Positions 21,798-61,028 of a stretch of DNA of 64,000 nucleotides are shown in pieces. The stretch covers positions 1,501,722-1,565,721 of the forward strand of contig JBHYGA010000001.1 in NCBI GenBank assembly GCA_051859245.1, read 5' to 3'. The stretch comes from Gemmatimonadaceae bacterium. GTDB lineage: Bacteria; Gemmatimonadota; Gemmatimonadetes; Gemmatimonadales; Gemmatimonadaceae. Below the pieces are notes generated by a model. That model did not search any database. It was given only the letters and a program-made list of their open reading frames with translations, and was not told the DNA's origin. A program made the position numbers and the translations under genes. Each line of letters begins with the position of its first letter. Within the stretch, counting starts at the first letter, position 1.

Positions 21798-21806
21798 GTG
21801 GGTGTC

Positions 21807-21824
21807 TTGTGAAATTCTTCACAA
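21807..21824. promoter_or_regulatory. Rex operator (ROP) TTGTGAA-ATTC-TTCACAA
   Basis: Perfect match to consensus TTGTGAANNNNTTCACAA, 9 nt upstream of the rex ATG, abutting a minus-strand -10 (TAACTT, 21829-21824). Confidence 0.9.
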
Positions 21825-21887
21825 AGTTATCCGACCAGCCCGCGGGATTCCAGCGCGGGGTGCCTTTCCCGGCGCTACTTTCACACC

Positions 21888-23857: not shown

Positions 23858-23963
23858 GGCCTAAGCACGATGCGGATTGGCGGCGTCTCCACAGTGAACC
23901 CTGTGAAGGCGAGACGTGTCCACTCTACGGACTCACACTTTTCCCGAACGTGCGGAGCGCGCG

Positions 23964-41673: not shown

Positions 41674-43288
41674 GCGACTCACTCGCCGACAAGGCGACTT
41701 CGTGCGCGAACAATACTTCCAGCGCGAACTTGGACTGCCCGCGCGCGAAGGCGGCCAGGGTGGAATACGTAAATCCGATCGCGCCGAACTGCGCCGAGCC
41801 CGAACCCGTCTCAAACGCGTCGCCATCAACCGGCTCGTAGCGATCCGCACCGAACGAGCGATACAGCCACGTCGCCGACACACCAAATTTGTCGCTCAGA
41901 TTCAGACGCGGCGCCACCTCAAGATCGACGCGCTGTCCCAGTGTGCGTGACACCGCCTGCGGTGTGCTCAGAAAGAAAAACTCTGGTAAACCTGCGCCCG
42001 GCACTCGCACCACCGCATTGTCCGCCAGCGGCGTGGTGCTACGAACGGTGGCTGAGACCCACGCACGATTTCTCCACACCAGATCGGTCGTGGCGCGCAG
42101 CAGCAACGCATTTACACCATCACCGGTGGCCAGTGCGAAGGCTTCGTTCGCTTGCGCGCTGCTGGCCGTACCAAAGCGCCAGCCGGCCGAGCCCAGTACA
42201 CGGATGCCCGAGCGTCGTGTTGAAAGGCGCGCCGCCTGATCGCCTTTCCACGTGTCGTACAGCAACACGCGTGCTTCAACGTCAACGTCGCCCATGCCGG
42301 CGCGGAAGGCGGCGGCCAACGTGTCCGCTTCCACGCCGAATGCCGGGTCCTGCGCGATCCGCTGCAATCCGTTGGTGCCGTACACGAGCACGGCACCGCT
42401 CGGGCCGATCGGCGGCAGCGTGGTCGTGCTCAGGAACCGTGTGAATCCTTCGCGAATGTCATCGAGTGATTCAGCCACTGCATTGTGCACCGCGCCGCCC
42501 TGCACAGGCACGAGCGGCGAACCAACGTCCTGATCATTGCCGTAGACAGCGCCCCACGCCGCACGAAATGATGCGACCCGTGCGGCGAGCGCCTGCGCAG
42601 CGGCGGGATCGGCGCGAATAGCGTCACACTCTGCGCCCGCCGTGGAGGCGGCGCAGCTCGAAATCAGGTCGAGCAGTCGCGTGCGTTCGTTGCCGAGTTG
42701 TACAAAGATGCTGCTGTTGGCCGTGTACACAGACGGGGACAGAATGCCGGGATTCTGACCGACGTTCGCGCCTGTGCCATTCCGGTTCAGCACCAGATTC
42801 GCGTTGTGCGTGACTTCCACATACGGGACGCGCACACCAACGCTGATACGCCGCGTAACGCCGAAGTCGGCCTGCAGCGTGGTCGTAGTGCGACGCACGG
42901 CGCCACTGGCTTCGAGTGCTCCCAGTGACAGATCGAAGGTGGGCAGTCCGGACAGCGCGCGAATGCCGTTCTGCGCGGGGGCCAGCGACGGCAACTGATT
43001 CACACCGAGGGACGAGGTCGCGAGCCCGTCCAGCAGCGGCGACCTCGTGCCGTCCGGGAAGAGGCGGCGATCCCACTGATCCCAGGAAACGCCAACGTTG
43101 ACGCGCAAGCCGCGGGCTGGAATCGGGATCGCGTCTTCACCAAGGCCGGCCACGGGCTGCGCCGAAAGACGGGGAACCGCCGTCAGCGCGATCACACCAG
43201 CCAGCAACACAGCGGGAATCACCGCACGCGATCGGGCAGCGGCGCGAGTTTCAGGGCGACGAGTCAGAAGAAGTCGGGTTGAGCGCAC
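41609..43288 (-). CDS. Hypothetical secreted/outer-membrane beta-barrel-like protein
   Basis: Signal peptide, alternating beta-strand patterns (ISVGVRVPYV, GMGDVDVEARV, FGVSATWLY), and a helical insert with two Cys. Confidence 0.6.
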   Translation of the reverse strand: MRSTRLLLTRRPETRAAARSRAVIPAVLLAGVIALTAVPRLSAQPVAGLGEDAIPIPARGLRVNVGVSWDQWDRRLFPDGTRSPLLDGLATSSLGVNQLPSLAPAQNGIRALSGLPTFDLSLGALEASGAVRRTTTTLQADFGVTRRISVGVRVPYVEVTHNANLVLNRNGTGANVGQNPGILSPSVYTANSSIFVQLGNERTRLLDLISSCAASTAGAECDAIRADPAAAQALAARVASFRAAWGAVYGNDQDVGSPLVPVQGGAVHNAVAESLDDIREGFTRFLSTTTLPPIGPSGAVLVYGTNGLQRIAQDPAFGVEADTLAAAFRAGMGDVDVEARVLLYDTWKGDQAARLSTRRSGIRVLGSAGWRFGTASSAQANEAFALATGDGVNALLLRATTDLVWRNRAWVSATVRSTTPLADNAVVRVPGAGLPEFFFLSTPQAVSRTLGQRVDLEVAPRLNLSDKFGVSATWLYRSFGADRYEPVDGDAFETGSGSAQFGAIGFTYSTLAAFARGQSKFALEVLFAHEVALSASESPIPSLARDRLELRIFRGFPKR

Positions 43289-43342
43289 AGGAGGCAGAAC
43301 GAGCCGTGCGCCAGGTGTCCGGCATCACGGGGGCAACCGGCT

Positions 43343-43371
43343 AGATTAGCCCGATCGTCCAAGCCCGTCAA
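43343..43371 (-). promoter_or_regulatory. Sigma70-type promoter for the 41609-43288 gene
   Basis: On the minus strand: TTGACG, 17 bp spacer, TAATCT. Confidence 0.6.
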
Positions 43372-43385
43372 CGCGACGGGTACGC

Positions 43386-45215
43386 GTGCTGATAGCGTCC
43401 TGCCTCCCCAAGGGTTCCGTGTCCGAGTCTCCTCGCTCCATTCCGTCCGTGCCGTGGCAGACCACGGGCAACCATTGGCTGTCGCTCCCGTGCATTCACC
43501 CGGCCAATGGTGCGATCTACGCCCTTGGCGTGTTGCACCGCGGTGCACGCGCTGCTGTGGAGTTCGCCGGTAGCCGAGGTTTTGTGGAAGGTGAAGGCGA
43601 GCCGCTGCTCAAACCCGTGATACGTGTTGACGGTGAGGTGAGAGAACTGGCCAGCGAGGGCATCGCCTGGGAACGCGCCGTTGGCTGGCTTCCGACCTTC
43701 ACCTGTACGCTTGGCTCGCTGTTGCTGCGCGGCACCGTGTTTGCGCCGTACGGTCGCGATGCCGACATGGCGGGCGCCGTGTACGCGATCACGATCGAGA
43801 ATCGTGGTTCGAATACGCACCGCGTGGAGCTCGCACTCGAAGGGGTGCTCGGTCACCGACAGCAGCGCGTGCGCACACCGCGCGACTTTGACGACGCACA
43901 TCGTGTAGTCCTCGGGCACAACGATACGATCATCCTCGAAGGCGCGGCCGTACCGGGCATGGTGGCGGTTGCGATTGGTGCCGACGGTGAAGCGGTGCGC
44001 GAGATTGGCGACGAGGTGAATGGTCGTATTGCATTTGCGGTGCGTCGCACGCTCACCGTGGAAGCGGGACAGTCCGTGCCGTGCGCGTTTTATCTTGCCG
44101 TCGGTCCGGAGCGTGATGGTGCGTGCGCAACGGTCGGTGTGCTGCGACGCCGTGGCTGGCGCACGTTGCTCGGTGCGACACGCGAAGCCTTGCAGCAGTT
44201 GGAGCAGACCACGGGCCAGGACGCCATTGACCGGCTTGTGAATCGCAACCTGCTGTTCAGCTATTTCTACGGCGTCGGGCGCGGACTCGACGACGCGCAC
44301 TATTACCTCGTGCGCACGCGAGCACCATGGCACAGTCTCGGCGCTACGGTACGTGACTGGGAAGCGCTGATGTGGACGTTGAGCGCTGTCCAACTGGCCG
44401 ATCACGCGCTTGCACGCGAGCTGCTGGTGCGCACCTGTGAACTGCATGGGTACGCGCCGGGGCAGGGTGTGCACTATCTCGATGGCACGCTGTTCGAGCC
44501 TGGGTTTGCGATTGAAGGCGCGGCGGCGTATCCCATTGCAGTTGACCGCTACATTCGGGCGTCCGACGATGATCAAATTGTCGAAGAGCCGGTAGTTGCT
44601 GACACGCTGTATGTCGCGAACGATGATCTGGTTGCACGTCGCGATGAGCGCCTGCCGCTGTACTCCACTGAAGTGAGTCCCAGTGGACAACCCGTGCGGT
44701 TTCCGTTCACGCTGCACGGCAACGCCGTGGTTGCCGCCGCGCTTGATGTGCTGCGGCGCACACTCGATGAAGAGGCCGCGCGCGACGTAGAAGACCCCGC
44801 GGCTGTGCGTGCGGCCATGCAGCGCCACTTCGCGCAGGATCGTGGTGGAAAAGCGCATCTCGCGGCGGCGATCGATCTCGCCGGTGGTGCGGACCAGGTG
44901 GATGATCCGGCTGCGTCCGTGCTGTGGTTGCCGCTGTATGACGCACTTGATCGAGATGACTCGTTGTTCCGCCGGTCGGTGCGCGCGGTTGCGCCGGATG
45001 ATGGCGGGCTCTTGCGTCAGATCGCGCGCTTGCTCGGCCCCGATGGAAACGCGGTGCTCCAATGGCTGCGTCGTGCACCGCTCGATCAGGGGATCGCCGC
45101 GTCGGTGGTGGATAGTGATGGACGCGGCGTGGCCGATGGCGGAGATGCGGCGCTGGCCGGCTTGCTCGCGTCAACGGTGTGGTACGCGTCGCACGCACTC
45201 GGCTTGCACGAATAA
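43386..45215 (+). CDS. Six-hairpin glycosidase-like protein (GH125-like, possibly catalytically degenerate)
   Basis: HYLDGTLFEPGF, DDPAASVLWLP and APLDQGIA segments resemble GH125-related (alpha/alpha)6 proteins; start may be GTG 43419. Confidence 0.55.
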   Translation: MLIASCLPKGSVSESPRSIPSVPWQTTGNHWLSLPCIHPANGAIYALGVLHRGARAAVEFAGSRGFVEGEGEPLLKPVIRVDGEVRELASEGIAWERAVGWLPTFTCTLGSLLLRGTVFAPYGRDADMAGAVYAITIENRGSNTHRVELALEGVLGHRQQRVRTPRDFDDAHRVVLGHNDTIILEGAAVPGMVAVAIGADGEAVREIGDEVNGRIAFAVRRTLTVEAGQSVPCAFYLAVGPERDGACATVGVLRRRGWRTLLGATREALQQLEQTTGQDAIDRLVNRNLLFSYFYGVGRGLDDAHYYLVRTRAPWHSLGATVRDWEALMWTLSAVQLADHALARELLVRTCELHGYAPGQGVHYLDGTLFEPGFAIEGAAAYPIAVDRYIRASDDDQIVEEPVVADTLYVANDDLVARRDERLPLYSTEVSPSGQPVRFPFTLHGNAVVAAALDVLRRTLDEEAARDVEDPAAVRAAMQRHFAQDRGGKAHLAAAIDLAGGADQVDDPAASVLWLPLYDALDRDDSLFRRSVRAVAPDDGGLLRQIARLLGPDGNAVLQWLRRAPLDQGIAASVVDSDGRGVADGGDAALAGLLASTVWYASHALGLHE

Positions 45216-45285
45216 TCACAATCACCTGACAGAAGCGCGGTCGGCGCTTGTAACCGAGCGCTGGCCGGGTTTAAGTTGGGAGCAC

Positions 45286-45507: not shown

Positions 45508-45531
45508 CTCATCACCACGTAGGAGACCGGC

Positions 45532-45753
45532 TTGCGTACCGTTCGTGACTCTCAGGGCATCAACTGGATTTGTCTCGAGCTGCCGGAGGTCCCCGCCGAT
45601 TTTGTGGCGGCCGCGACCACGATTCAACCCCCGCCCGTTGCCGTCGAATGCAACTCCGGCGCCGATCGAGCCATTGTGTTGCTGGCAGAGGATTGGGCGG
45701 ACGCGTTATCCGATGACGGACTTGTTGAACATATCGCACGCGCATTGCGCTGA
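45532..45753 (+). CDS. Small hypothetical protein (73 aa)
   Basis: TTG start preceded by AGGAGA; protein-like composition; fills the tRNA-pcs gap. Confidence 0.6.
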   Translation: MRTVRDSQGINWICLELPEVPADFVAAATTIQPPPVAVECNSGADRAIVLLAEDWADALSDDGLVEHIARALR

Positions 45754-45844
45754 TCCAGCGTTGTTACGGCATTGATCTTGCGCTGCTCCTCACTGAGCCA
45801 CAACGTGGCTCAGGTGCGCGTTCACGTCATGGCAAGGGGATGGG

Positions 45845-48800
45845 GTGGCTGCTTCTGGGGAGACGATTGGGCTCGCGGCGGTAACTCCGCCTGAGCCTCT
45901 GCGCAACGCGTTGCGCACACGGGAAGACTGGGAGGCCGCACGTGCGGCGTGCGAGGCCGATCCCGGTCGCTATCATGGCGACATTGCAGCACACACGCTG
46001 CATTGGTTCGACGCCTCCCTGGGCGAACATGGTGCGTGGATCACACACGATGAACACACCGGCGTGTGGTCTGGCTGGGACGCTCACACCTTGCAGCCTG
46101 TCGCTCCGTCGCGAGACGCGGCGTGGCGACCGTGGACGCGCGCGTTGAACGACGATGACGCGCCGTGGTACCGCTGGTTCGAAGGCGCGCTCACGAACGC
46201 GGGCTTCAACGAGGTTGATCGCCACGTACTCGCCGGCCATGGTGAAGAGCCTGCCTTTCTCGTCGAAGGCGATCGCTGGGATCAGTCACGCGACAACGGA
46301 CGCGGCGCACCTGTGGTGTCGTATCCCATCTCGCGCAAGGGACTGCTCGTCGATGTCGCGAAAGCAGCGCTCGCGTTGCGCGCACTTGGTTTGAAGACGG
46401 GCGATCGCATCGCGCTCAACCTGCCCAACATTCCGCAGCAGATTGCGTGGACTGAAGCAGCAAAGCGACTCGGCATTCTGTATACGCCCGTCTTCGGTGG
46501 CTTCTCGGACAAAACGCTCGCCGACCGCATTCATGACGCGGGCGCGCGCGTTGTGATTACCGCCGATGGCGGATGGCGCAACGCGCAGATCATTCCATTC
46601 AAGGCGGCCTACACCGATCCCGCGCTCGATCAGTACATCGCGGCGGATCGTGCCGTGCACGTCGTGCGTGACGCGCTCGGCGCGCTCTCACTTGACGCCG
46701 CGCAGGTTGAACTGATTGCGCGCAGTGCGGCCGAGGCCGTGGCTGGCGAAATTACCGTGGAACGGCGTGATGCAATGCGCGGTGTGGGTCGCGCGTTGCT
46801 CTCGCTCACGGAGTCTGGCGCGCTCAACGCGTCTGATGCGAGCCGAGTGCGCACGGCGGTCGCGCGGGCACTGGTCGACGCCGGTTCGGCGGTTGAGCGC
46901 GTCGTGGTGGTGAAGTACACCGCGCAAGCCGATGTGCCGTGGCGTGCGGGGCGTGATGTGTGGGAAGACGAACTGCTCGCGCCCGCCAGCGCCGCGTTGC
47001 TTGAGGCGGCGCGCGCGCTCGGACATCGCGTGTCCACCGAAGCGGAACTGCGTGAACTGTCCGACACCGATCTGGTTCGTGTGGTGTGGTCGGTGGTGCC
47101 TCCGGTTCCGGTGGACAGCGAGTTCCCGCTGTTCTTCATCTACACGTCAGGCTCTACTGGCAAGCCCAAGGGTGTCGTGCACGTGCACGGTGGATGGACC
47201 GCCGGTATTGCACACACCATGCGCATCGCGTTTGATGCACAGCCCGGCGATGTGATGTATGTGGTGGCAGATCCGGGATGGATTACCGGACAGAGCTACA
47301 TGATTTCGGCCGCACTGACCACGCGCACCACGAGCGTGCTCGCGGAAGGCGCGCCGGTGTTTCCGTCGGCCGGCCGGTTTGCATCGATCATTGAACGGTA
47401 CAACGTGCGCATCTTCAAGGCGGGTGTCACGTTCCTCAAGAGCGTGATGCAGGATCCGCAAAACGCCGAAGATGTGCAGCGCTATGATGTCTCGTCATTG
47501 CGTGTCGCCACGTTCTGCGCCGAACCCACATCGCCAACGGTGCAAGAGTTTGGCATGTCGCTGCTCACGCCCTGGTACATCAACTCGTACTGGGCCACGG
47601 AACATGGCGGCATTGTGTGGACGCACTTTTTTGGCAACGGCGATTTTCCGCTGCGTGCCGACGCACACACGTATCCGCTGCCGTGGGTGATGGGTGATGT
47701 GTGGCTGGCCGACGGCGTGCCAGATGCAGATGGTCGCTTCGCGCCGCGTGTGGCTGATGAAGGCGAGAAGGGCGAAGTCGTGATCACGGCGCCGTACCCG
47801 TATCTCGCGCGCACCATCTGGGGCGACGTTGGGTCGTTCACGGTGGACGGCCACTCGGTATCTTCCAGTTGGCGCGGTGACATTGATCGGTATCGCGCCA
47901 CATACTGGAGCCGGTGGCAGGGCCGCTGGGCGTACACACAAGGTGATTTCGCGGTGCGCTATCCCGACGGCGGGTTCTCACTGCACGGACGAAGTGATGA
48001 CGTGATTAATGTGTCCGGTCATCGCATGGGCACAGAGGAGATTGAAGGCGCCATTCTGCGCGACAAACAACTCAACGCCGATTCGCCAATCGGCAATGTG
48101 ATTGTTGTTGGCGCGCCGCATCGCGAGAAAGGCCTTACACCGCTCGCGTTCGTCACGATCGCCCCGGGGCGTCGACTCACGGCGGATGATCGTCGCCGCC
48201 TCATCGAACTTGTGCGTCAGGAAAAGGGCGCTGTAGCGGTGCCCGAAGATTTCCTTGAAGTGTCCGCGTTCCCGGAAACGCGCAGCGGCAAGTATGTGCG
48301 CCGACTGCTTCGCGCGCTCGTGGAGGATCAGCCACAGGGTGACCTGAGCACGCTGCGCAATCCGGAGTGTGTGCCCGCGCTGCAACGCGTGATTGGTGAA
48401 TGGAAAGCGCGTCAGCGTGTTCGCGAGTCGCAGCGCATTCTTGAACACGGTCGCTACTTCCGTGTGCAGTACCACACGGTGGCGCAGGTACATGGCGAGT
48501 CCGTTCGTATGGCGCTTGTGACGGTCACGAATGCACCTGTGAACGCGCTGAACGAACGCGCGCTGGATGAGCTGGTCACTGTGGTTGAACATTTGTCGCG
48601 TCGCAAAGACGTGGCCGCCGTTGTTTTCACCGGCGAAGGCACATCGTCTTTTGTGGCTGGCGCTGACATTCGTCAGCTGCTCGAAGATGTGCACACCGTT
48701 GAGGAAGCGGTCACGCTGCCAAACGTGGCCCATCTCGCGTTCCGCACGATTGAGCGCATGAACAAGCCGTGCATTGCCGCGATCAATGGTGTGGCGCTCG

Positions 48801-51331
48801 GTGGCGGTATGGAGTTCGCCCTCGCGTGTCATGTTCGGATCGCGGAACAGAAAGCACTGTTCGGACAGCCGGAGATTCGTTTGAATCTGCTGCCTGGTTA
48901 CGGCGGCACGCAGCGACTCACACGGTTACTCGCTGATCGTGATGGAATGGAAGGCGTTGTCCAGGCAGTGGAGATGCTCGTGGGCGGGCGCACCATCACC
49001 GCGCGCGAGGCCGCAGACATTGGTGTCGTCGACGAAGTGGTTACCGATGCGCAGGATGTCGTGGCGCATGCATCGGCCCTCGTGCGTGACTACATCGCCG
49101 ACCGCGAACAGAGCAAACTTGGCAAGGCATTTCGCCACGTACGCGAACGACGCGAAGCGTGGGAGAAGCCTGGCGCGCTTGATGTGCGCCAGGCGTTCGC
49201 GTTGCCACCTGTGGTGCGGTTGCTGGAGCAAGCCGAACGTGTCGGTCGCGCTGCGCATGTTGCGCGCGTGCTTGATGCCGTCGAAACGGGATGGCGTGAA
49301 GGGCTGGTCTCCGGCCTCGCACATGAAGCGAAGCTGTTTGCATCCGCGGTGGTCGATCCTGAAGCAGGCAAGGCAGGCATTCGCGCGTTCTTCGATCGCG
49401 CCAGTGCGCCGCTCCCCGTGCGACGCGGTGCGATTGTTGATGCGGCCCAGGAAGCCGAACTCGCCGCCCGAGGGGACTTGTTACCGGTTGGTGCCCCGTT
49501 CTTCCCGGGGCTCACCGCCATTCCCACCTGGCAGTACGGTCTTGGTGTCATCAAAGACCCGCACACTGGCGCACCGCGACATGGTGAGCCGGCCCAGGTT
49601 GAACAGCAGGTGGTTGTGCCGGTAGAAACACCGGGTCCGAATGACGTGCTGCTCTACGTCCTCGCGTCTGAAGTGAACTTCAACGACATCTGGGCGATTA
49701 CGGGCATTCCCGTGTCGCCGTTTGATTCCCACGATCGTGATGTACAAGTCACCGGTTCCGGCGGCGTTGGACTGGTGGCATCAATCGGCGACGCGGTGAA
49801 AGCCGAAGGACGCGTGCGTGTTGGCGATCTTGTCACGATCTACTCGGGGCAGAGCAGTTTGCTGTCACCGCTCGCCGGTCGTGATCCAATGTCGGCTGAC
49901 TTCCGCATTCAGGGCTACGAAACGTTTGAAGGCAGTCACCAACAGTTTCTGTTGGTGCAGGCGCCGCAGTGTCATCCGCTGCCGCCCGATGTCACGTTGG
50001 AAGCAGCCGGTTCGTACATCTTGAATCTCGGCACCATCATTCGTGCGCTGTTTACCACGCTGCAAATCACTGGCGGCCGCACGATGTTCGTCGAAGGTGC
50101 GGCCACGGGCACCGGGCTTGAAGCGCTCAAGACCGCCGTCGCGCATGGTCTGAAGGTCACCGGACTCGTCTCGAGCGAAGACCGTGCACACACCGTGAAG
50201 TCCTTCGGTGCAACGGGCGCGATCAACCGCCGAAGCGCAGGCATTTCGGACTGCTTCACGATGGTACCCGGCGACGCCGCGTCGATCGCCAGGTGGGAAG
50301 CCGCCGGACAACCGTTGCTCGAAGCGTTCCGCGCGCAACACGATGGAAAGCTCGCAGACTACGTTGTCTCGCACGCCGGTGAACAGTCGTTTCCGCGCAG
50401 CGTGCAACTGCTGGCCGACGGCGGCTCCCTTGCCTTCTACGGAGCGTCTACCGGCTACCATTTCACCTTTGCGGGCAAGCCAGGCGCAGTGAGTGTGAAC
50501 ACGATGTACGAACGCGCTGGCCTTGTGGCCGGTGAAGCCGTGCTCGTGTACTACGGACCTGGGCTCGCCGCTGACGCATTGGTCGACGCCATCGGCATTG
50601 AAGCCATTGAGGCTGCGGCCGCACGACGCGCACGCATTGCGGTAGTGTGTTACACCGACGCGCAACGCGAGTTTGTGCGTTCGCTTGGCTTTGGCGATCA
50701 ACTCGCTGGCGTCGTCGCGCTTGATGAACTGCGCCGCCGCGCGAGTATGGAGTTCGATTGGCCGAGTACGATGCCGCCGCTGCCAGATGTTCGACGCGAC
50801 TCCATCGCATTCAAGGAAGCAGTGCGCGCATTTCAGGAGCGCACGATCAAGCCGCTTGGCCAGGCCGTGGGCAAACTGCTGCGTTCCTCCGACAATCCGC
50901 GTGGTGCGCCCGACCTGATCTTCGAACGTGCGGCACACGATGCCCTCGCCGCGTCCACCGCATTGGTGCAACCGTTCAGTGGCCGCATTGTGTACGCAGA
51001 AGACATGCACCACAAGCGATACAGTTTTTACGCCCCACAAGTCTGGATGCGTCAGCGACGCATTCTGCTCCCCACGTGCAGCATTCTCGGCACTCATCTC
51101 TGCAACGCCTACGAGGTTGTCCGCATGAATCAGATGCTCGCCGCAGGTCAACTCGACGTTACGGCACCGACGGTAGTGCCGTGGAATGACTTGCCGGAAG
51201 CGCATCAGGCCATGTGGGAGAATCGCCACACGGGTGCGACATACGTGGTGAATCACGCGTTGCCCGCGACCGGACTACGATCGCGCGATGAACTGTACGA
51301 GGCGTGGGCCTCAGGGAGCGCCAACGTATGA
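45845..51331 (+). CDS. pcs: Trifunctional propionyl-CoA synthase (3-hydroxypropionyl-CoA synthetase / dehydratase / acrylyl-CoA reductase)
   Basis: 1828 aa: ACS domain (YTSGSTGKPKG, YWATEHG, GRSDDVINVSGHR, PETRSGK), crotonase domain (FVAGADI, GGGMEF, QPEI, PGYGGTQRL) and Ccr-like MDR reductase (SEVNFNDIW, GAATGTG, VWMRQRRI, GTH). Confidence 0.93.
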   Translation: MAASGETIGLAAVTPPEPLRNALRTREDWEAARAACEADPGRYHGDIAAHTLHWFDASLGEHGAWITHDEHTGVWSGWDAHTLQPVAPSRDAAWRPWTRALNDDDAPWYRWFEGALTNAGFNEVDRHVLAGHGEEPAFLVEGDRWDQSRDNGRGAPVVSYPISRKGLLVDVAKAALALRALGLKTGDRIALNLPNIPQQIAWTEAAKRLGILYTPVFGGFSDKTLADRIHDAGARVVITADGGWRNAQIIPFKAAYTDPALDQYIAADRAVHVVRDALGALSLDAAQVELIARSAAEAVAGEITVERRDAMRGVGRALLSLTESGALNASDASRVRTAVARALVDAGSAVERVVVVKYTAQADVPWRAGRDVWEDELLAPASAALLEAARALGHRVSTEAELRELSDTDLVRVVWSVVPPVPVDSEFPLFFIYTSGSTGKPKGVVHVHGGWTAGIAHTMRIAFDAQPGDVMYVVADPGWITGQSYMISAALTTRTTSVLAEGAPVFPSAGRFASIIERYNVRIFKAGVTFLKSVMQDPQNAEDVQRYDVSSLRVATFCAEPTSPTVQEFGMSLLTPWYINSYWATEHGGIVWTHFFGNGDFPLRADAHTYPLPWVMGDVWLADGVPDADGRFAPRVADEGEKGEVVITAPYPYLARTIWGDVGSFTVDGHSVSSSWRGDIDRYRATYWSRWQGRWAYTQGDFAVRYPDGGFSLHGRSDDVINVSGHRMGTEEIEGAILRDKQLNADSPIGNVIVVGAPHREKGLTPLAFVTIAPGRRLTADDRRRLIELVRQEKGAVAVPEDFLEVSAFPETRSGKYVRRLLRALVEDQPQGDLSTLRNPECVPALQRVIGEWKARQRVRESQRILEHGRYFRVQYHTVAQVHGESVRMALVTVTNAPVNALNERALDELVTVVEHLSRRKDVAAVVFTGEGTSSFVAGADIRQLLEDVHTVEEAVTLPNVAHLAFRTIERMNKPCIAAINGVALGGGMEFALACHVRIAEQKALFGQPEIRLNLLPGYGGTQRLTRLLADRDGMEGVVQAVEMLVGGRTITAREAADIGVVDEVVTDAQDVVAHASALVRDYIADREQSKLGKAFRHVRERREAWEKPGALDVRQAFALPPVVRLLEQAERVGRAAHVARVLDAVETGWREGLVSGLAHEAKLFASAVVDPEAGKAGIRAFFDRASAPLPVRRGAIVDAAQEAELAARGDLLPVGAPFFPGLTAIPTWQYGLGVIKDPHTGAPRHGEPAQVEQQVVVPVETPGPNDVLLYVLASEVNFNDIWAITGIPVSPFDSHDRDVQVTGSGGVGLVASIGDAVKAEGRVRVGDLVTIYSGQSSLLSPLAGRDPMSADFRIQGYETFEGSHQQFLLVQAPQCHPLPPDVTLEAAGSYILNLGTIIRALFTTLQITGGRTMFVEGAATGTGLEALKTAVAHGLKVTGLVSSEDRAHTVKSFGATGAINRRSAGISDCFTMVPGDAASIARWEAAGQPLLEAFRAQHDGKLADYVVSHAGEQSFPRSVQLLADGGSLAFYGASTGYHFTFAGKPGAVSVNTMYERAGLVAGEAVLVYYGPGLAADALVDAIGIEAIEAAAARRARIAVVCYTDAQREFVRSLGFGDQLAGVVALDELRRRASMEFDWPSTMPPLPDVRRDSIAFKEAVRAFQERTIKPLGQAVGKLLRSSDNPRGAPDLIFERAAHDALAASTALVQPFSGRIVYAEDMHHKRYSFYAPQVWMRQRRILLPTCSILGTHLCNAYEVVRMNQMLAAGQLDVTAPTVVPWNDLPEAHQAMWENRHTGATYVVNHALPATGLRSRDELYEAWASGSANV

Positions 51332-54300
51332 GCGACACCACAGCAACGGCCGCTGACCGACGCCGAGCGCCACGCGGTCGACTGGCGGGAAGAGTCGTGC
51401 TGCTCACCGGTGCCGCCGGCAACATCGGAACGCAGATTTCACGGCAGCTACTGCGAGAAGGCGCAACGCTTGTCATGAGCGGCCGGGATCAGGCACGCCT
51501 CGACGCCGCGAAGGCCGCGCTGCGTGAAGAGTTGCACGTACCGGCCACGCGAATACTCACGGTGGTAATGGACGGCGCCGAGCCTGGACAGGTGCGTGTC
51601 GGCGTTGAGCAGGTGATGGCCAAAGCGGGACGCATCGATGTACTCGTGAACAACGCGGGTTCGGCTGGACCAAAGTGTCGACTGCGCGATGTACCGTTCA
51701 CCGCCGGTGAGCTTGAAGCGCTGGCCGAAGTTGGTGTGCACGAGAAGGAAACGGTGAGCGCGGCGGCGCGCAATTTGTTTGGCATTGCGTGGAATCTCGT
51801 GCGTGCCTGCGTGCCGCACATGAAGCCTGGCAGCACCATCATCAACGTCTCCACCATCTTCTCTCGCACGCAGTACTACGGACGCTCGGCGTACGTTGTG
51901 CCCAAGGCGGCCCTGAACAGCTTCTCCAAGCAGCTCGCGGCCGAGGTTGGACCACTCGGCATTCGCGTGAATACCGTCTTCCCTGGGCCGATTCGCTCGG
52001 AGCGAATTCGCACGGTGTTCTCAGCCATGGACAAGTTGCGTCATGCGGAGGACGGCACCACCGCGCGAGAAAACTTCGATCTCATGACACTCGCGCGCTC
52101 GGTGAATGGCGAACCACCGGAGCGAACGTTCCCGAGCGTTGAAGACGTTGCGAACACGATCGTGTTCCTGTCGTCTGACGAATCCGCGGCGTACAACGGG
52201 CACAATTTCGAAGTCACGCACGGCATGCGCGTGCGTCAGGAGTCTCGCAGTACATGGGTCTCACGTCCTGAACTGCGGACTGTCGATGGGTCCGGCGTGC
52301 GCGTCTTGCTGGCCGCTGGTGATCAGGTCAAGGACGCGCTCACCGTGGCACGCGTGCAGGCCGGTTGTGGTGCCGAAGTCGTACTCGGACTCGGCTCCGA
52401 GGAAGGCGTGCAGGCGGCGCAGGAAGCGCTCGGCGCCAATCCGGGAGACGAACGCATTCGCCCGGTACTGCTGGATCGCATGCGCCCTGAAACGGTGGAC
52501 AGCCTCTTCGAAACGCTGCGCCATGAAGACGCGCTCGTGCACGGGGCGATCATCATGCCGGCGTTTGGCGCGTGGCGCTTTCGCGGTCGGTTCACGGATG
52601 CATCAGACAGCGACGTCTCCACGTTCATTGACGGTGAAATCGCGGGCACCATGTTGCTGGCACGTGCACTGACGGTGTTCTGGAAGGATGTGGAGCACGA
52701 GCTCAGCATGCCGCCGAGCATTGCGTTCGTCACGAACGGTGACGATGGAGCGGGGAACAACTACGCCGACGTACTGCGCGCGGCGACGGAAGAGTTGTGT
52801 CGCGTCTGGCGTGATGAAACCGAGGTACAACAGGCATCAGGCGAGCGTCGTTTCGAAGAGTGGTCGAACCAGATCATTCGCTGGGGGAATCGCGAGCCAG
52901 AAGAGGTGCCATTCGCGGCGGGACAGGCCGCGCGGTTGCTGTACACGCGGCGTCGAATTCGTCAGGTGAATCTCTATCTGCCGCTGTCGATCGTACGCGC
53001 CACCGGATCACGTCGCTCGTCGTTCGGGTGGATGGAGAACGTGATGGGGCTGCACCTCGGCAAGGTTGCGCTCATCACGGGCGGTAGTGCGGGTATTGGT
53101 GGTCAGTTGGCGCGGCTGCTCGCCATTGGTGGCGCGCGCGTCATGCTCGTGGCGCGACGCGCTGATCAGCTCAAGGAAATGCGCGACGGCATTGTGACCG
53201 AACTGGAAGATATCGGCTACTACGACGCGCCCGATCGCGTGCAATGCGTGGCCGATGTTGATGTCGCCGATGAGGCGAGTCTGCGCCGCGCGGTTGACGA
53301 AACACTCGCCGCGTTCGGGCGCGTGGATTATCTGGTCAACAACGCCGGCGTGGCTGGCGCGGAACAGATGGTTGTGGACATGGACGTCGAAACGTGGCGA
53401 AACACGCTGAACGCGAATCTCGTGTCGAACTATTCGTTGATCGAGAAGATTGTCCCGATCATGAAGCGGCAGGGCAGTGGATACATTCTCAACGTATCTT
53501 CGTATTTTGGTGGCGAGAAGTACATCGCGGTTCCGTATCCCAATCGGGCGGACTACGCCGTCTCCAAGGCGGGTCAGCGCGCGCTTACCGAGAATCTTGC
53601 CCGGTTTGTCGGGCCGGAGATTCAGGTGAATGCGATTGCGCCGGGTCCGGTTGATGGTGATCGACTGCGCGGAGTTGGTGGCAAACCCGGTCTCTTCGAG
53701 CGTCGTGGCAAGCTCATTCTTGAGAATCGTCGACTGAACGCAGTGTACAAGGCGGTCATCGATGCGCTGCGCGGCGGCGCGCTCGTCACCAACGTGCTCG
53801 CGCTTGTGCAAGGCAACGATGTAGACGCCATCGCCACCGACGAAAGCGCGCCAGCCGCACTTCGCAAACTCGCCGAGAGTATTCGCGCGGAATCACTTGC
53901 GGCCGACACTGAAGCCAGCTCCGGCCGTTTTCTCATGACGCGGAGCATCGCACAGCGTCTCGTCGCGCGGTTGCGCCTCGGCGGGCGCTTTCTCGCATTG
54001 CCGGCGGATGCACCGCAGTATGGCGACGAGTGGATCCTCGCGATTCCCGACGCGGTGGAGCCGTTTATCGATCGCGATCAGATCAAGCGCGAAGCGAGCA
54101 AAATCGGCAAGGGAGTGCTGAGCATGCTGCACTTGCGCAACATGCCGGGCGAGCTCGAGGTCGCACTTGCCACGGTGTACTTTCTCGCGGACCGCGCTGT
54201 TTCCGGAGAGACGTTCCAGCCGTCGGGAGGTTTGCATCAGGAGCGCACCATCACCGAGCGAGAACTGTTTGGCCGTGCCAAGCCCGAGCGCATTGCGCGG

Positions 54301-55026
54301 ATGGCGCAGCAAACGATCTGGCTGGTGGGCGACTACCTGTATCCGCATCTCGCGCGCGCGGCTCGCCTGGCGCTGGAGTACAGCCATGTCGGCCGCATCA
54401 TGCTGCTCACACGCACACCCGAGGCGGCGGCGCAAACCCAGGACTTGCTCCGTATTGTGCTCGGCAATGAACGGGTGCACAGCATTGTGGTGGGTGATGA
54501 TCTCGACGCGGGCATGGACGAGGCACTGCGTGTGGGCGGACAGCCGGCCGCTGTTGTATCAACGCCGTTCGAGCCACTCCCGCGAGAACTCTTCAATGCC
54601 GATGGGTCTGCGGCGCTCGATGCGGCGGGCTTTGCGTCGCTTGTTGAGGAGCACCTGACCCATCACTTCCGCGTGGCGCGCAAAGTGTCGTTGTTTGACG
54701 ACGTGCGTTTGGTACTCGTGTCGCCAGACGTACCGGTGCATCCAACGCACGCCGAGTTCGCCCTGGCAAACTTTGTGAAAACCACCTTGCACGCGCTCAC
54801 CGCCACTCTCGGCGTGGAGAACGAGCGTCTGGTGCACAACGTGCCGGTCAACCAGATCAACCTCACGCGTCGTGTGCGCTCGGAAGAGCCGCGTGACGCC
54901 CGTGAGCAGGCAGAAGAACAGGAGCGCTTTGCCCACGCCGTGTTGCTTGCCAGCGCCCCGTTGCCAGACCAGGAAGACAGCCGATATCGGTCGCGAATCT
55001 ATCGCGGTCTCGCGATCACGGTGTGA
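51328..55026 (+). CDS. mcr: Bifunctional malonyl-CoA reductase (3-hydroxypropionate-forming)
   Basis: About 1232 aa with two SDR domains (TGAAGNIG...NNAGSAGP...YYGRSAYVVPK; TGGSAGIG...NNAG...SSYFGGEK...YPNRADYAVSK) and C-terminus RIYRGLAITV, as in Chloroflexus-type Mcr; ATGA overlap with pcs. Confidence 0.93.
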   Translation: MSDTTATAADRRRAPRGRLAGRVVLLTGAAGNIGTQISRQLLREGATLVMSGRDQARLDAAKAALREELHVPATRILTVVMDGAEPGQVRVGVEQVMAKAGRIDVLVNNAGSAGPKCRLRDVPFTAGELEALAEVGVHEKETVSAAARNLFGIAWNLVRACVPHMKPGSTIINVSTIFSRTQYYGRSAYVVPKAALNSFSKQLAAEVGPLGIRVNTVFPGPIRSERIRTVFSAMDKLRHAEDGTTARENFDLMTLARSVNGEPPERTFPSVEDVANTIVFLSSDESAAYNGHNFEVTHGMRVRQESRSTWVSRPELRTVDGSGVRVLLAAGDQVKDALTVARVQAGCGAEVVLGLGSEEGVQAAQEALGANPGDERIRPVLLDRMRPETVDSLFETLRHEDALVHGAIIMPAFGAWRFRGRFTDASDSDVSTFIDGEIAGTMLLARALTVFWKDVEHELSMPPSIAFVTNGDDGAGNNYADVLRAATEELCRVWRDETEVQQASGERRFEEWSNQIIRWGNREPEEVPFAAGQAARLLYTRRRIRQVNLYLPLSIVRATGSRRSSFGWMENVMGLHLGKVALITGGSAGIGGQLARLLAIGGARVMLVARRADQLKEMRDGIVTELEDIGYYDAPDRVQCVADVDVADEASLRRAVDETLAAFGRVDYLVNNAGVAGAEQMVVDMDVETWRNTLNANLVSNYSLIEKIVPIMKRQGSGYILNVSSYFGGEKYIAVPYPNRADYAVSKAGQRALTENLARFVGPEIQVNAIAPGPVDGDRLRGVGGKPGLFERRGKLILENRRLNAVYKAVIDALRGGALVTNVLALVQGNDVDAIATDESAPAALRKLAESIRAESLAADTEASSGRFLMTRSIAQRLVARLRLGGRFLALPADAPQYGDEWILAIPDAVEPFIDRDQIKREASKIGKGVLSMLHLRNMPGELEVALATVYFLADRAVSGETFQPSGGLHQERTITERELFGRAKPERIARMAQQTIWLVGDYLYPHLARAARLALEYSHVGRIMLLTRTPEAAAQTQDLLRIVLGNERVHSIVVGDDLDAGMDEALRVGGQPAAVVSTPFEPLPRELFNADGSAALDAAGFASLVEEHLTHHFRVARKVSLFDDVRLVLVSPDVPVHPTHAEFALANFVKTTLHALTATLGVENERLVHNVPVNQINLTRRVRSEEPRDAREQAEEQERFAHAVLLASAPLPDQEDSRYRSRIYRGLAITV

Positions 55027-60168: not shown

Positions 60169-61026
60169 ATGGCCCTCTCTCTTGCCGAACTTGAAGCGCG
60201 TCTGTCGCATCCGGACCTGCTTGACTCTAACGTCACGTTGCCAATGGACGCGGCCGCCACGTTCGAGACGTTTCTCGTGCGATTGGAAGCCGGCGAACTG
60301 CGCGCGGCGCGCAAAGATGCGGACGGCCGCTGGCATGCCGTGCCATGGGTAAAGCGTGGCATCCTGCTCGGTTTCCGCATCGGTCGCGTTGTTGAAATGG
60401 GTGCGGCGACTGGCGGCATCAATCACTTTCTTGATAAGCACACGTTTCCGCCGCGTGAATACCGCCTCGAGCATTCGGTGCGCATTGTGCCCGGCGGATC
60501 GGCCGTGCGGCGCGGCGCGTATCTCGCGCCAGGTGTGGTGTGCATGCCGCCCATGTACGTGAACGTTGGCGCGTACGTTGGTGCCGGTACGATGGTGGAT
60601 TCGCACGCGCTCGTGGGTTCGTGCGCGCAGATTGGCGAGCGCGTGCACTTGAGTGCGGCCGCACAAATTGGTGGCGTGCTTGAGCCGGTGAATGCGGCGC
60701 CGGTGATCATTGAAGACGACGTGATTGTTGGCGGCAACTGCGGCGTGTACGAAGGCACGGTGGTGCGCGAGCGCGCTGTGCTCGGCGCCGGCGTGATTCT
60801 CACGCGTGGCACACCGGTGTATGATCTGGTGCAGGAGCGCATGCTGCGCGGCACCGATGATTCGCCTCTCGAGATTCCCGCCGGTGCCGTGGTCGTCCCC
60901 GGTGCGCGACAGGTCACGTCGGAGTGGGGGCGCGCGCAGGGTCTCTCCATTCAGACACCTGTGATTGTGAAGTACCGCGACAGCCGCACCGATTCGGCCA
61001 CCGCGCTCGAAGCCTGGCTGCGGTAG
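60169..61026 (+). CDS. dapD: Tetrahydrodipicolinate N-succinyltransferase
   Basis: [37 protein letters not shown]. Confidence 0.95.
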
Positions 61027-61028
61027 TC

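What the first reader, a model, noticed from the sequence alone, without database searches (positions are those of the whole stretch)
45845..55026. Coupled pcs-mcr operon: both signature enzymes of the 3-hydroxypropionate bi-cycle in an apparently Gemmatimonadota-like genome
Seen: two very large ORFs joined by an ATGA overlap (51328-51331), one an ACS-crotonase-reductase fusion of 1828 aa and one a double-SDR of about 1232 aa, with intact catalytic motifs. Established: Mcr (malonyl-CoA to 3-hydroxypropionate) and Pcs (3-hydroxypropionate to propionyl-CoA) are the key enzymes of the Chloroflexus aurantiacus 3-HP bi-cycle, and partial sets occur in some aerobic anoxygenic phototrophs such as Erythrobacter. 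Inference: with host acetyl- and propionyl-CoA carboxylases, the pair gives an NADPH-consuming, bicarbonate-fixing route from acetyl-CoA towards succinyl-CoA. That could be a full autotrophic or mixotrophic bi-cycle, or a half-cycle for acetate/3-HP assimilation and redox disposal. mcl, mch, mct, meh and smtAB are not in this window, so autotrophy cannot be claimed. I cannot verify novelty; metagenomic reports in this phylum may exist.
Basis: partly seen in the sequence, partly recalled or inferred. Interest (0 to 1): 0.92.

Follow-up and report, generated by a model that had tools for sequence, protein, structure and literature searches.

The report
Known pcs-mcr operon in Gemmatimonadota
Two giant neighbouring genes encode the two signature enzymes of the 3-hydroxypropionate carbon-fixation route in a Gemmatimonadota chromosome, a combination that metagenome surveys have already reported for this phylum.

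Summary
ORF 45845-51331 (1828 aa) and ORF 51328-55026 (1232 aa) overlap in ATGA.

The first aligns end to end with the only solved propionyl-CoA synthase-like chain, 6eqo (2419 bits). The second aligns end to end with full-length malonyl-CoA reductases 8hi4 and 8hjw (about 1185 bits). It keeps every catalytic and substrate-binding residue that I checked.

The host is Gemmatimonadota. All 6 organism-named PheT hits belong to that phylum, and the window lies on a 1.83 Mb contig among housekeeping genes.

Pcs and Mcr trees agree. Both place the window in a clade with Gemmatimonas groenlandica (70-71% identity).

The pair is widespread: over 1100 clusters at 90% identity. The pcs-mcr order holds in 12 of 14 informative loci, and the 4-base overlap recurs in 5-7 of 12.

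No second-cycle genes are in the window. A different Gemmatimonas MAG has pcs-mcr-smtAB-mct-mcl-mch in one cluster.

All bi-cycle genes were reported in Gemmatimonadales MAGs in 2022. This is a new member of a known kind and of modest interest.

The parts
45845..51331 (+). pcs: trifunctional propionyl-CoA synthase, 1828 aa, GTG start
   Evidence: ORF and translation. 6eqo_A scores 2419.2 bits, residues 23-1825 against 23-1843. 120 of 120 listed homologues have 98-100% coverage and 64-95% identity.
46127..48388 (+). Pcs ligase domain (3-hydroxypropionate-CoA ligase; residues about 95-848)
   Evidence: Pfam ACAS_N, AMP-binding and AMP-binding_C. NCBIfam acetate-CoA ligase model 450.9 bits, below its 657-bit cut-off. 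Motifs TSGSTGKPKG at 434, YWATEHGG at 582, GRSDDVINVSGHR at 715 and PETRSGK at 810 fall in columns that are invariant or nearly so (>=90%) in alignment A1.
48509..49168 (+). Pcs crotonase domain (3-hydroxypropionyl-CoA dehydratase; residues about 889-1108)
   Evidence: Pfam ECH_1 and ECH_2. GGGMEFA with E990 and GQPE with E1010, both invariant in A1.
49574..51235 (+). Pcs enoyl-reductase domain (acrylyl-CoA reductase, MDR/Ccr-like; residues about 1244-1797)
   Evidence: Pfam ADH_N, ADH_zinc_N and ADH_zinc_N_2. NCBIfam crotonyl-CoA carboxylase/reductase model 212.8 bits. GAATGTG at 1418 is invariant in A1.
51328..51331 (+). ATGA overlap of the pcs stop and the mcr start (possible translational coupling)
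   Evidence: Sequence. The same ATGA occurs in L001, L008, L010, L011 and L012. GTGA occurs in L002 and possibly L003.
51328..55026 (+). mcr: bifunctional malonyl-CoA reductase, 1232 aa
   Evidence: 8hi4_A 1186.9 bits (18-1232 against 6-1229) and 8hjw_A 1180.7 bits. 119 of 120 listed homologues have >=96% coverage (one partial record, P0212, 81%), and all 120 have 60-97% identity.
51364..53019 (+). Mcr N-terminal half (SDR1-SDR2; malonate semialdehyde to 3-hydroxypropionate)
   Evidence: 6k8v_A 570.6 bits, residues 13-564. T176, Y183, R186, Y189 and K193 match RfxMCR T165, Y172, R175, Y178 and K182.
52996..55023 (+). Mcr C-terminal half (SDR3, extra domain, SDR4; malonyl-CoA to malonate semialdehyde)
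   Evidence: 6k8s_A 808.9 bits, residues 557-1232. S725, Y737, R740, Y743, K747, R779, L789 and R793 match RfxMCR S731, Y743, R746, Y749, K753, R785, L795 and R799.
45509..45844 (+). Upstream spacer between tRNA-Leu and pcs, presumed promoter region (no promoter identified)
   Evidence: No sigma-70-like site here and no Rfam match apart from the two tRNAs. It holds a 73-aa ORF (45532-45753) with no family.

Best explanation
This is a genuine two-gene pcs-mcr operon that is chromosomal and native to a Gemmatimonadota lineage.

Mechanism, from established biochemistry of the family. Mcr reduces malonyl-CoA with two NADPH. SDR3 with the extra domain and SDR4 forms malonate semialdehyde, and SDR1 reduces it to 3-hydroxypropionate. 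Pcs then activates 3-hydroxypropionate with ATP and CoA, dehydrates it to acrylyl-CoA and reduces that with NADPH to propionyl-CoA, all within one polypeptide.

Shown here: the identity, completeness and conserved catalytic residues of both enzymes, their Gemmatimonadota context, their joint phylogeny, and the conserved gene order and overlap.

Inferred: with acetyl-CoA and propionyl-CoA carboxylases, epimerase and mutase encoded elsewhere, the pair forms the first cycle of the 3-HP bi-cycle (acetyl-CoA plus 2 bicarbonate to succinyl-CoA). In this organism it most likely serves mixotrophic co-assimilation of CO2 with acetate or 3-hydroxypropionate and NADPH disposal, as proposed for aerobic anoxygenic phototrophs. 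It is less likely to be a closed autotrophic cycle. The glyoxylate-assimilation genes are not beside it, unlike in the other Gemmatimonadota-labelled lineage that has them.

The confidence given (0.6) is for the whole statement, including the inferred half-cycle role. For the identity of the two enzymes and their native Gemmatimonadota context alone I would give about 0.95.
For: Identity of the enzymes:
- Full-length matches to solved Pcs and Mcr chains.
- Domain order ligase, crotonase, reductase.
- All 13 Mcr residues checked against mutagenised RfxMCR residues are conserved.
- The Pcs motifs fall in columns that are invariant or nearly so (>=90%) across 13 homologues.

Native context:
- The window lies on a 1,829,505-bp contig.
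- It is flanked on the same strand by recN and two tRNAs upstream and by an ArgE/DapE-family gene, asd, lysC, dapB, dapA and dapD downstream.
- GC is uniform at 0.59-0.655.
- No att-like repeat was found.
- All 6 organism-named PheT hits are Gemmatimonadota.
- A close relative's 97,756-bp contig holds Pcs, Mcr, PheS, PheT, Asd and MutS2.
- Nine contig lengths recur between the Pcs list and the PheT list, with concordant identities: 82/80, then 68-72 against 64-66.

Phylogeny:
- The Pcs tree has a 22-row clade (SH-aLRT 100) that holds the window and G. groenlandica.
- The Mcr tree is congruent.

Unit character:
- mcr follows pcs in 12 of 14 loci that have sequence downstream.
- A 4-base overlap recurs in 5-7 of 12 junctions.

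Half-cycle reading:
- 0 tblastn hits in the window for smtA, smtB, mct, mcl and mch taken from L004 and L007.
- No CoA_transf_3, HpcH_HpaI, MaoC, carboxylase or mutase domain in 150 of the 151 other ORFs of 130 aa or more.
- The sister locus L001 also lacks these genes within 10 kb.
- The incomplete pathway is read as CO2 co-assimilation in Erythrobacter NAP1 and Porphyrobacter (passages).
Against: - No expression or activity data exist for this organism.
- No promoter was recognised, so operon status rests on the overlap and on conserved order.
- Only 64 kb of a contig of at least 1.83 Mb was visible. Second-cycle genes, acc, pcc, mcm and photosynthesis genes may lie elsewhere, so 'half-cycle' is a default and not a finding.
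- Two surveys report complete marker sets in some Gemmatimonadota MAGs.
- L004 shows that a full cluster can exist under this phylum's label.
- The phylum assignment rests on one marker, PheT, and 6 named hits at 63-65% identity.
- L001, labelled Gammaproteobacteria, nests inside the clade (AU p = 7.8e-5 against excluding it), so descent is not purely vertical or that label is wrong.
Confidence: 0.6

Rival explanations
1. The genome encodes the complete 3-hydroxypropionate bi-cycle, with the second-cycle genes elsewhere on the chromosome, and can grow autotrophically or photoautotrophically.
For: Garritano et al. report all bi-cycle genes in two Gemmatimonadales MAGs (section 7 read in full). 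A 2026 preprint finds mcr plus mcl in freshwater Gemmatimonadota (passages). L004, a Gemmatimonas sp. MAG, has pcs-mcr-smtA-smtB-mct-mcl-mch in one cluster.
Against: None of these genes is in the 64-kb window. L004 belongs to a different Pcs/Mcr clade, together with Steroidobacteraceae (AU p = 1.8e-51 against one Gemmatimonadota clade). A 2024 study states that there is no physiological confirmation of autotrophy in the phylum (passage).
Confidence: 0.2
2. The pair does not serve carbon gain. It acts mainly as an NADPH sink or redox valve. Alternatively, Pcs alone serves assimilation or detoxification of external 3-hydroxypropionate or acrylate, and Mcr is accessory.
For: The route uses three NADPH per acetyl-CoA converted (established biochemistry). 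Pcs is described as sequestering a toxic intermediate (title and passage cited). Bi-cycle genes are up-regulated by day in Porphyrobacter (passage).
Against: Strict co-inheritance and overlap of mcr with pcs across clades argue that the two act in sequence, from malonyl-CoA through to propionyl-CoA. Pcs does not appear to act alone.
Confidence: 0.15
3. The operon is a recent horizontally acquired island inserted at the tRNA-Gly/tRNA-Leu site, or an assembly or binning artefact.
For: It lies directly downstream of two tRNA genes. Its nearest labelled relative outside the unnamed subclade is a record labelled Gammaproteobacteria (L001, 74%).
Against: There is no integrase, no att-like repeat and no GC shift. 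The genes sit on one 1.83-Mb contig. The same linkage with pheST, asd and mutS2 occurs in a relative. Contig lengths are shared between the PheT and Pcs lists across the whole clade.
Confidence: 0.04
4. The two ORFs are unrelated acyl-CoA ligase and SDR fusions with other substrates.
For: NCBIfam has no specific model. The best hits are acetate-CoA ligase, below its cut-off, and generic SDR or FabG models. Public records name the homologues 'AMP-binding protein' and 'SDR family oxidoreductase'.
Against: Collinear full-length matches to the solved Pcs and Mcr. Substrate-binding residues specific to Mcr are conserved. JGI names the homologues as Pcs and Mcr.
Confidence: 0.01

Closest known systems
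Propionyl-CoA synthase of Erythrobacter sp. NAP1 (PDB 6eqo; the link between this code and the organism is recalled; one search confirms that such a structure was solved)
   Same: One chain with ligase, crotonase and reductase domains. Collinear match over residues 23-1825 at 2419 bits. The ligase, hydratase and NADPH motifs are present.
   Different: Different phylum. Sphingomonad-type Pcs sequences (L006 Blastomonas, about 60% identity) sit in another clade of the tree. Identity to 6eqo itself was not computed.
Bifunctional malonyl-CoA reductases with solved structures: Roseiflexus castenholzii 8HI4; 8hjw and 6k8s/6k8v (organisms recalled: Chloroflexus aurantiacus and Porphyrobacter dokdonensis)
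   Same: Full-length collinear match of about 1185 bits. All 13 catalytic or binding residues checked are conserved.
   Different: Each half alone scores highest against the 6k8v and 6k8s fragments: 567 against 485 bits for the N-terminal half, and 810 against 785-795 bits for the C-terminal half. Rfx Arg1164 was not checked.
Gemmatimonas groenlandica homologues P0040 and P0163 (NCBI names: AMP-binding protein; SDR family NAD(P)-dependent oxidoreductase)
   Same: Same phylum and the same Pcs/Mcr clade, at 70% and 71% identity. Both proteins are listed with a longest contig of 5,179,092 bp.
   Different: A sister subclade, not the window's own. Its gene neighbourhood could not be fetched. The species description does not mention the pathway (0 occurrences of six search terms).
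pcs-mcr-smtA-smtB-mct-mcl-mch supercluster in Gemmatimonas sp. MAG L004, and smtAB-mct-mcl-mch-pcs-mcr in Burkholderiales MAG L007
   Same: pcs followed by mcr on one strand.
   Different: The second-cycle genes are adjacent there and absent from this window. Those loci form a different clade with Steroidobacteraceae, and a spacer replaces the ATGA overlap.
3-hydroxypropionate bi-cycle of Chloroflexus aurantiacus
   Same: The two signature enzymes.
   Different: In the Chloroflexaceae locus L014, pcs has no mcr within 10 kb. Here the rest of the cycle is unseen, and the host is an aerobic-type Gemmatimonadota lineage.

Membership tests
Propionyl-CoA synthase (Pcs) | One polypeptide of about 1800 aa with acyl-CoA ligase, enoyl-CoA hydratase and enoyl-reductase domains in that order | tested here: met
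   Pfam domains in order along 1828 aa.
Propionyl-CoA synthase (Pcs) | Collinear full-length homology to a characterised or solved Pcs | tested here: met
   6eqo_A scores 2419.2 bits, residues 23-1825 against 23-1843. The next hit is 273 bits and covers the ligase domain only.
Propionyl-CoA synthase (Pcs) | Catalytic motifs of all three domains: P-loop and A10 lysine, two crotonase glutamates, and the NADPH-binding glycine motif (the motif definitions are recalled) | tested here: met
   Motifs located. They fall in columns that are invariant or nearly so (>=90%) in the 13-sequence alignment A1.
Propionyl-CoA synthase (Pcs) | Conversion of 3-hydroxypropionate to propionyl-CoA that depends on ATP, CoA and NADPH | not testable with these tools
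   Needs an enzyme assay.
Bifunctional malonyl-CoA reductase (Mcr, Chloroflexus type) | A chain of about 1220 aa built of SDR1-SDR2 and SDR3, extra domain, SDR4 | tested here: met
   8hi4_A aligns over 18-1232 against 6-1229. The halves match 6k8v and 6k8s.
Bifunctional malonyl-CoA reductase (Mcr, Chloroflexus type) | SDR1 catalytic triad Thr-Tyr-Lys plus the Tyr and Arg that bind malonate semialdehyde | tested here: met
   T176, Y183, R186, Y189 and K193 are in register with Rfx T165, Y172, R175, Y178 and K182.
Bifunctional malonyl-CoA reductase (Mcr, Chloroflexus type) | SDR3 Ser, the YxxRxxY motif and Lys, plus Arg, Leu and Arg of the extra domain for CoA and semialdehyde binding | tested here: met
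   S725, Y737, R740, Y743, K747, R779, L789 and R793 align without gaps to Rfx S731, Y743, R746, Y749, K753, R785, L795 and R799.
Bifunctional malonyl-CoA reductase (Mcr, Chloroflexus type) | SDR4 arginine (Rfx Arg1164) that binds malonyl-CoA | not tested
   That part of the alignment to 8hi4 was not printed.
Bifunctional malonyl-CoA reductase (Mcr, Chloroflexus type) | [quoted passage not shown] | not testable with these tools
   Needs an enzyme assay.
Complete 3-hydroxypropionate bi-cycle | mcr and pcs both present | tested here: met
Complete 3-hydroxypropionate bi-cycle | Glyoxylate-assimilation genes smtAB, mcl, mch, mct and meh | tested here: inconclusive
   Absent from the 64-kb window: 0 tblastn hits for smtA, smtB, mct, mcl and mch, and no such Pfam domains, including a further MaoC or mesaconyl-CoA-hydratase domain for meh, in 150 of 151 other ORFs. 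The rest of the genome could not be read.
Complete 3-hydroxypropionate bi-cycle | Acetyl-CoA and propionyl-CoA carboxylases, methylmalonyl-CoA epimerase and mutase | tested here: inconclusive
   None in the window. The rest of the genome could not be read.
Complete 3-hydroxypropionate bi-cycle | Autotrophic growth or net bicarbonate fixation | not testable with these tools
   Needs physiology.

The most novel reading that the evidence does not exclude
The Gemmatimonadota clade that holds this window and cultured Gemmatimonas groenlandica has carried pcs-mcr vertically at a conserved chromosomal site near pheST, without adjacent glyoxylate-assimilation genes. It may nevertheless close a CO2-fixing cycle, either with dispersed second-cycle genes or through a different glyoxylate route. 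That would make these aerobic bacteria bicarbonate-fixing mixotrophs or autotrophs outside Chloroflexota, and the idea could be tested in pure culture.
Probability: 0.15. Interest if true: 0.7.

Novelty: new member of a known kind. Interest (0 to 1): 0.3.

Why it matters
The 3-HP bi-cycle has been shown physiologically only in Chloroflexota (recalled knowledge). The genomic surveys I read describe the same state: one says the cycle has been attributed exclusively to Chloroflexota, and another says its role elsewhere is not well established. Its signature genes keep appearing in aerobic anoxygenic phototrophs and other aerobes, where their role is unsettled.

This window adds a clean example on a long contig. 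It shows the pair as a native part of a Gemmatimonadota chromosome.

The comparison gives two usable points:
- Genomes labelled Gemmatimonadota carry two separate pcs-mcr lineages. One is a bare pair. The other is fused into a full bi-cycle cluster.
- The bare-pair lineage includes a cultured species, G. groenlandica. Its genes are named only generically in NCBI. The main texts of three Gemmatimonadota genomics papers that I searched do not mention the pathway.

The physiological question of carbon gain against redox valve can therefore be tested at the bench. The finding itself is not new: surveys from 2022 and 2026 already list this phylum.

Tried and rejected
- The genome-contig scan chose peptide patterns in the ligase domain. 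As a result 61 of the 80 loci kept are ordinary acetyl-CoA synthetases (31-37% identity, ligase region only), and only L001-L019 are Pcs loci. Synteny in the closest relatives therefore rests on shared contig lengths and not on DNA.
- My first ORF picking by GC3 chose several wrong-strand ORFs. I replaced it with Pfam scans of all ORFs of 130 aa or more.
- The first AU test was confounded, because unlabelled rows inside the clade counted as outsiders. I repeated it on the 30 labelled rows only. In both tests the groups were named after I had seen the tree.
- Searches for an island signature found nothing: direct repeats, Rfam, promoters and terminators.
- The small ORF 45532-45753 has no NCBIfam family and no tblastn hit better than E = 2 in the 19 Pcs loci. 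An earlier query for it used coordinates off by one base, so that row is void.
- The Bernhardsgruetter 2018 Pcs paper is not held. The Pcs catalytic residues were therefore judged by general family motifs recalled from memory, not by that paper's mutants.
- The paper search (phototrophic Gemmatimonadetes, bicarbonate, anaplerotic) returned nothing relevant.
- Supplements of PMC9802188, which would name the two Gemmatimonadales MAGs and their gene order, were not opened. bioRxiv supplements are closed.
- No structure prediction or complex prediction was run, because no claim here needs one.

Full report
OBSERVATION

One search lists a 1828-aa ORF at 45845-51331 (+, GTG start). It also lists an ORF in another frame that ends at 55026. 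From the ATG at 51328 that second ORF gives 1232 aa. The bases at 51328-51331 are ATGA, so the mcr start codon and the pcs stop codon overlap. A GGGGA stretch lies just upstream of the pcs GTG.

WHAT THE TWO PROTEINS ARE

Pcs. Pfam places AMP-binding, AMP-binding_C, ECH_1 and ECH_2, and ADH_N/ADH_zinc_N in that order along the first protein. Against the chains of solved structures it aligns over residues 23-1825 with the 1850-aa chain 6eqo_A at 2419 bits. The next hits, at 273 bits or less, cover only the ligase domain. I recall 6eqo as the propionyl-CoA synthase of Erythrobacter sp. NAP1. A passage in PMC6662991 confirms that this structure was solved, but the primary paper is not held. The following motifs are all present:
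- the ligase P-loop (TSGSTGKPKG at 434);
- YWATEHGG at 582;
- GRSDDVINVSGHR at 715;
- the lysine motif PETRSGK at 810;
- the two crotonase glutamates (E990, E1010);
- the reductase glycine motif GAATGTG at 1418.
They fall in columns that are invariant or nearly so (90% or more) in a 13-sequence alignment. The meaning of these motifs is recalled family knowledge.

Mcr. The second protein has two adh_short matches. It aligns over its full length with 8hi4_A (1187 bits, 18-1232 against 6-1229) and with 8hjw_A (1181 bits). 8HI4 is the full-length malonyl-CoA reductase of Roseiflexus castenholzii (data-availability passage of PMC10470521). That paper names residues whose mutation abolishes or lowers activity (passages):
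- SDR1: Thr165, Tyr172, Arg175, Tyr178, Lys182;
- SDR3: Ser731, Tyr743, Arg746, Tyr749, Lys753;
- extra domain: Arg785, Leu795, Arg799.
In gap-free alignment rows these 13 residues correspond to T176, Y183, R186, Y189, K193, S725, Y737, R740, Y743, K747, R779, L789 and R793 of the window protein. All 13 are conserved. Arg1164 of SDR4 was not checked.

Annotation. NCBIfam has no model specific to either enzyme. The best Pcs hit is acetate-CoA ligase, below its cut-off, and the Mcr hits are generic SDR models. This explains why NCBI records call the homologues 'AMP-binding protein' and 'SDR family oxidoreductase', while JGI names them as Pcs and Mcr.

HOST AND CONTEXT

The window is ordinary chromosome. 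It carries hrcA, dnaJ, prmA, mutS2, dnaG, recJ, pta, rex, infC, pheST, rny, folD, xseA, ispA, dxs, nadK and recN. Then come tRNA-Gly(GCC) and tRNA-Leu(TAA), then pcs-mcr. After a 62-nt gap an ArgE/DapE-family gene follows, then asd, lysC, dapB, dapA, dapD and a fused aroA-cmk, all on the same strand.

GC is even at 0.59-0.655. I found no att-like repeat of the tRNA ends, no terminator-like site in the 62-nt gap after mcr, and no RNA family apart from the two tRNAs.

Exact look-up shows that ten window proteins sit on an NCBI contig of 1,829,505 bp. A close relative's contig of 97,756 bp holds Pcs, Mcr, PheS, PheT, Asd and MutS2.

A search with PheT listed 120 hits. The 6 that carry an organism name are Gemmatimonas phototrophica, Gemmatimonas sp., two Gemmatimonadaceae MAGs and two Gemmatimonadota MAGs, at 63-65% identity. 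The closer hits (74-93%) are unnamed. The lineage is distinct from the genus Gemmatimonas.

DISTRIBUTION AND PHYLOGENY

Pcs has 1320 relatives and Mcr has 1119 among the 8000 candidates scored for each. The best 120 of each are full-length, except one partial Mcr record, at 60-97% identity. They include G. groenlandica at 70% (Pcs) and 71% (Mcr).

Nine contig lengths recur between the Pcs list and the PheT list. The identities are concordant: 82/80 for one, and 68-72 against 64-66 for the other eight. This suggests that the linkage to pheT and the divergence are those of vertical descent. It is an inference from equal contig lengths and not from DNA.

The single genome-contig scan returned 19 true Pcs loci among the 80 kept. 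Fourteen of them extend beyond the pcs stop codon, and mcr follows directly in 12 of these. The exceptions are the Chloroflexaceae locus L014 and L015. L018 carries only a partial match and was set aside. None of the 19 loci shares the window's flanking genes.

At the pcs-mcr junction, ATGA recurs in L001, L008, L010, L011 and L012. GTGA occurs in L002 and possibly L003. L004, L005, L006, L007 and L017 have spacers. The overlap is therefore an old and recurrent trait of the operon and not a peculiarity of this genome.

Trees were built with quick IQ-TREE (LG+G4, SH-aLRT support only). The Pcs tree has 44 rows and was rooted on L014. The Mcr tree has 37 rows and was rooted on the Halieaceae group, because no Chloroflexota Mcr was at hand. 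The two trees agree.
- The window falls in an unnamed subclade of 5 rows (Pcs) or 6 rows (Mcr).
- Next to it is a group that holds L001, which is labelled Gammaproteobacteria.
- Next to these is a clade of 13 rows (Pcs) or 10 rows (Mcr) that holds G. groenlandica and MAGs named Gemmatimonadota.
- Together these form 22 rows in the Pcs tree (support 100) and 19 to 20 rows in the Mcr tree (support 99 and 97).
- A second Gemmatimonadota-labelled group (L004 Gemmatimonas sp. MAG and P0101 Gemmatimonadaceae MAG) lies elsewhere, with Steroidobacteraceae.

On the 30 labelled rows, holding all 16 Gemmatimonadota rows together is rejected (p-AU 1.8e-51). Holding the 14 rows without L004 and P0101 together, which excludes L001, is also rejected (p-AU 7.8e-5). 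Both groups were named after I had seen the tree. So there are at least two origins under this phylum's label. There has also been one exchange with a lineage labelled gammaproteobacterial, unless that label is wrong.

Searching the 50%-identity representatives with the C-terminal half of Mcr gives 86 proteins at E of 1e-30 or better. Among the listed hits of about 1100 aa or more, only about five are close relatives (42-61% identity). About fifteen others are two-half proteins of roughly 1100-1280 aa at 34-38% identity.

FULL CYCLE OR HALF CYCLE

In the Burkholderiales locus L007, two closely related family III CoA-transferases, a third CoA-transferase, an HpcH-type lyase and a MaoC/mesaconyl-CoA hydratase lie directly upstream of pcs-mcr. 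I read these as smtA, smtB, mct, mcl and mch, by domain and order only.

In L004 the same five genes follow mcr, at 20240-25400.

Using those proteins as queries, the window gives 0 tblastn hits at E of 1e-3 or better. Pfam finds none of the relevant domains, and no carboxylase, mutase or photosynthesis genes, in 150 of the 151 other ORFs of 130 aa or more. The one remaining ORF has no NCBIfam hit. L001, in the window's sister group, also lacks them within 10 kb.

In this lineage the pair therefore stands alone at its locus. Whether the second cycle is encoded elsewhere could not be tested.

LITERATURE

- Garritano et al. [quoted passage not shown] Their supplements were not opened.
- A 2026 preprint (passages) finds mcr plus mcl in mostly freshwater Gemmatimonadota and calls the role open.
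- A 2024 study of marine Gemmatimonadota (passages) found no complete autotrophic pathway and notes that autotrophy has not been confirmed physiologically in the phylum.
- The G. groenlandica description and two Gemmatimonadota genomics papers contain none of the pathway terms I searched for in their main texts. The one 'propionyl-CoA' passage found in them concerns propionyl-CoA to succinyl-CoA conversion.
- In Porphyrobacter and Erythrobacter NAP1 the incomplete pathway is read as CO2 co-assimilation and is up-regulated by day (passages).
- A 2026 study of AAP MAGs from the Greenland Ice Sheet reports three with a complete 3-HP pathway (passages).

VERDICT

The operon is a native pcs-mcr module in a Gemmatimonadota chromosome. 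It most likely converts acetyl-CoA-derived malonyl-CoA to propionyl-CoA as part of a bicarbonate-co-assimilating, NADPH-consuming route. That role is inferred.

It is a new member of a known kind. The phylum-level claim is already in print, and a cultured relative carries the same genes. Interest is modest (0.3).

The useful residue is the contrast between the bare-pair lineage and the full-cluster lineage under this phylum's label, and the fact that the question can be tested in G. groenlandica.

Noticed in passing
L004:10001-25400 and L007:3877-19278: A Gemmatimonas sp. MAG carries pcs-mcr-smtA-smtB-mct-mcl-mch on one strand. A Burkholderiales MAG carries smtA-smtB-mct-mcl-mch-pcs-mcr. The gene names are my reading of the domains and the order.
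   Followed up: partly
L001 (record labelled Gammaproteobacteria bacterium T3Sed10_171R1): Its Pcs (74%) and Mcr (73%) nest inside the Gemmatimonadota-dominated clade (AU p = 7.8e-5 against excluding it). Its flanks hold pst-like transporter genes, a ZapG-like gene, OTCase and FBPase. This points either to transfer between phyla or to a wrong label.
   Followed up: partly
L004:15464-15628, L002:15457-15591, L003:15421-15534: In these loci Mcr appears to start with an extra N-terminal tail rich in Lys, Ala and Ser, with repeated AKTS-like units in L004. The window's Mcr lacks this tail.
   Followed up: no
L007:15467-15560: The pcs-mcr spacer holds about seven tandem copies of an 11-nt unit (AACGTCAGGCC-like).
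   Followed up: no
window 45532-45753 (+): A 73-aa ORF lies between tRNA-Leu and pcs. It has no NCBIfam family and no counterpart in the 19 Pcs loci. It may not be a gene.
   Followed up: partly
window 41609-45215: About 3.6 kb holds long ORFs on both strands (43386-45215 on + against 43368-45062 on -, and 41609-43288 on -) with no Pfam or NCBIfam match. A strong terminator-like hairpin at 45238-45267 (+) favours the + strand ORF 43386-45215.
   Followed up: partly
window 60924-63050 (+): EPSP synthase (AroA) and cytidylate kinase (Cmk) are fused in one 708-aa ORF. As called, its start overlaps dapD by about 100 nt, so the true start is probably later.
   Followed up: no
window 63061-63897 (-): An ORF with a HipA_C kinase domain (HipA-like toxin of a toxin-antitoxin pair) lies at the window's end.
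   Followed up: no
window 4351-5859 (-): An NhaB-type Na+/H+ antiporter with a very strong Pfam match (771 bits) lies next to an LpxR-like outer-membrane protein gene.
   Followed up: no
P0396-P0409, P0414 and others: About fifteen 50%-identity clusters of two-half proteins of roughly 1100-1280 aa are only 34-38% identical to the C-terminal half of Mcr. They form a distant Mcr-like family of unknown substrate.
   Followed up: no
L015 (Candidatus Thermochlorobacter aerophilum MAG) and L018 (Actinomycetota MAG): Pcs-like matches occur under unexpected labels. In L015 the match spans 7.7 kb, so the gene is interrupted or carries an insert, and no mcr lies nearby. L018 matches only residues 420-1034.
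   Followed up: no
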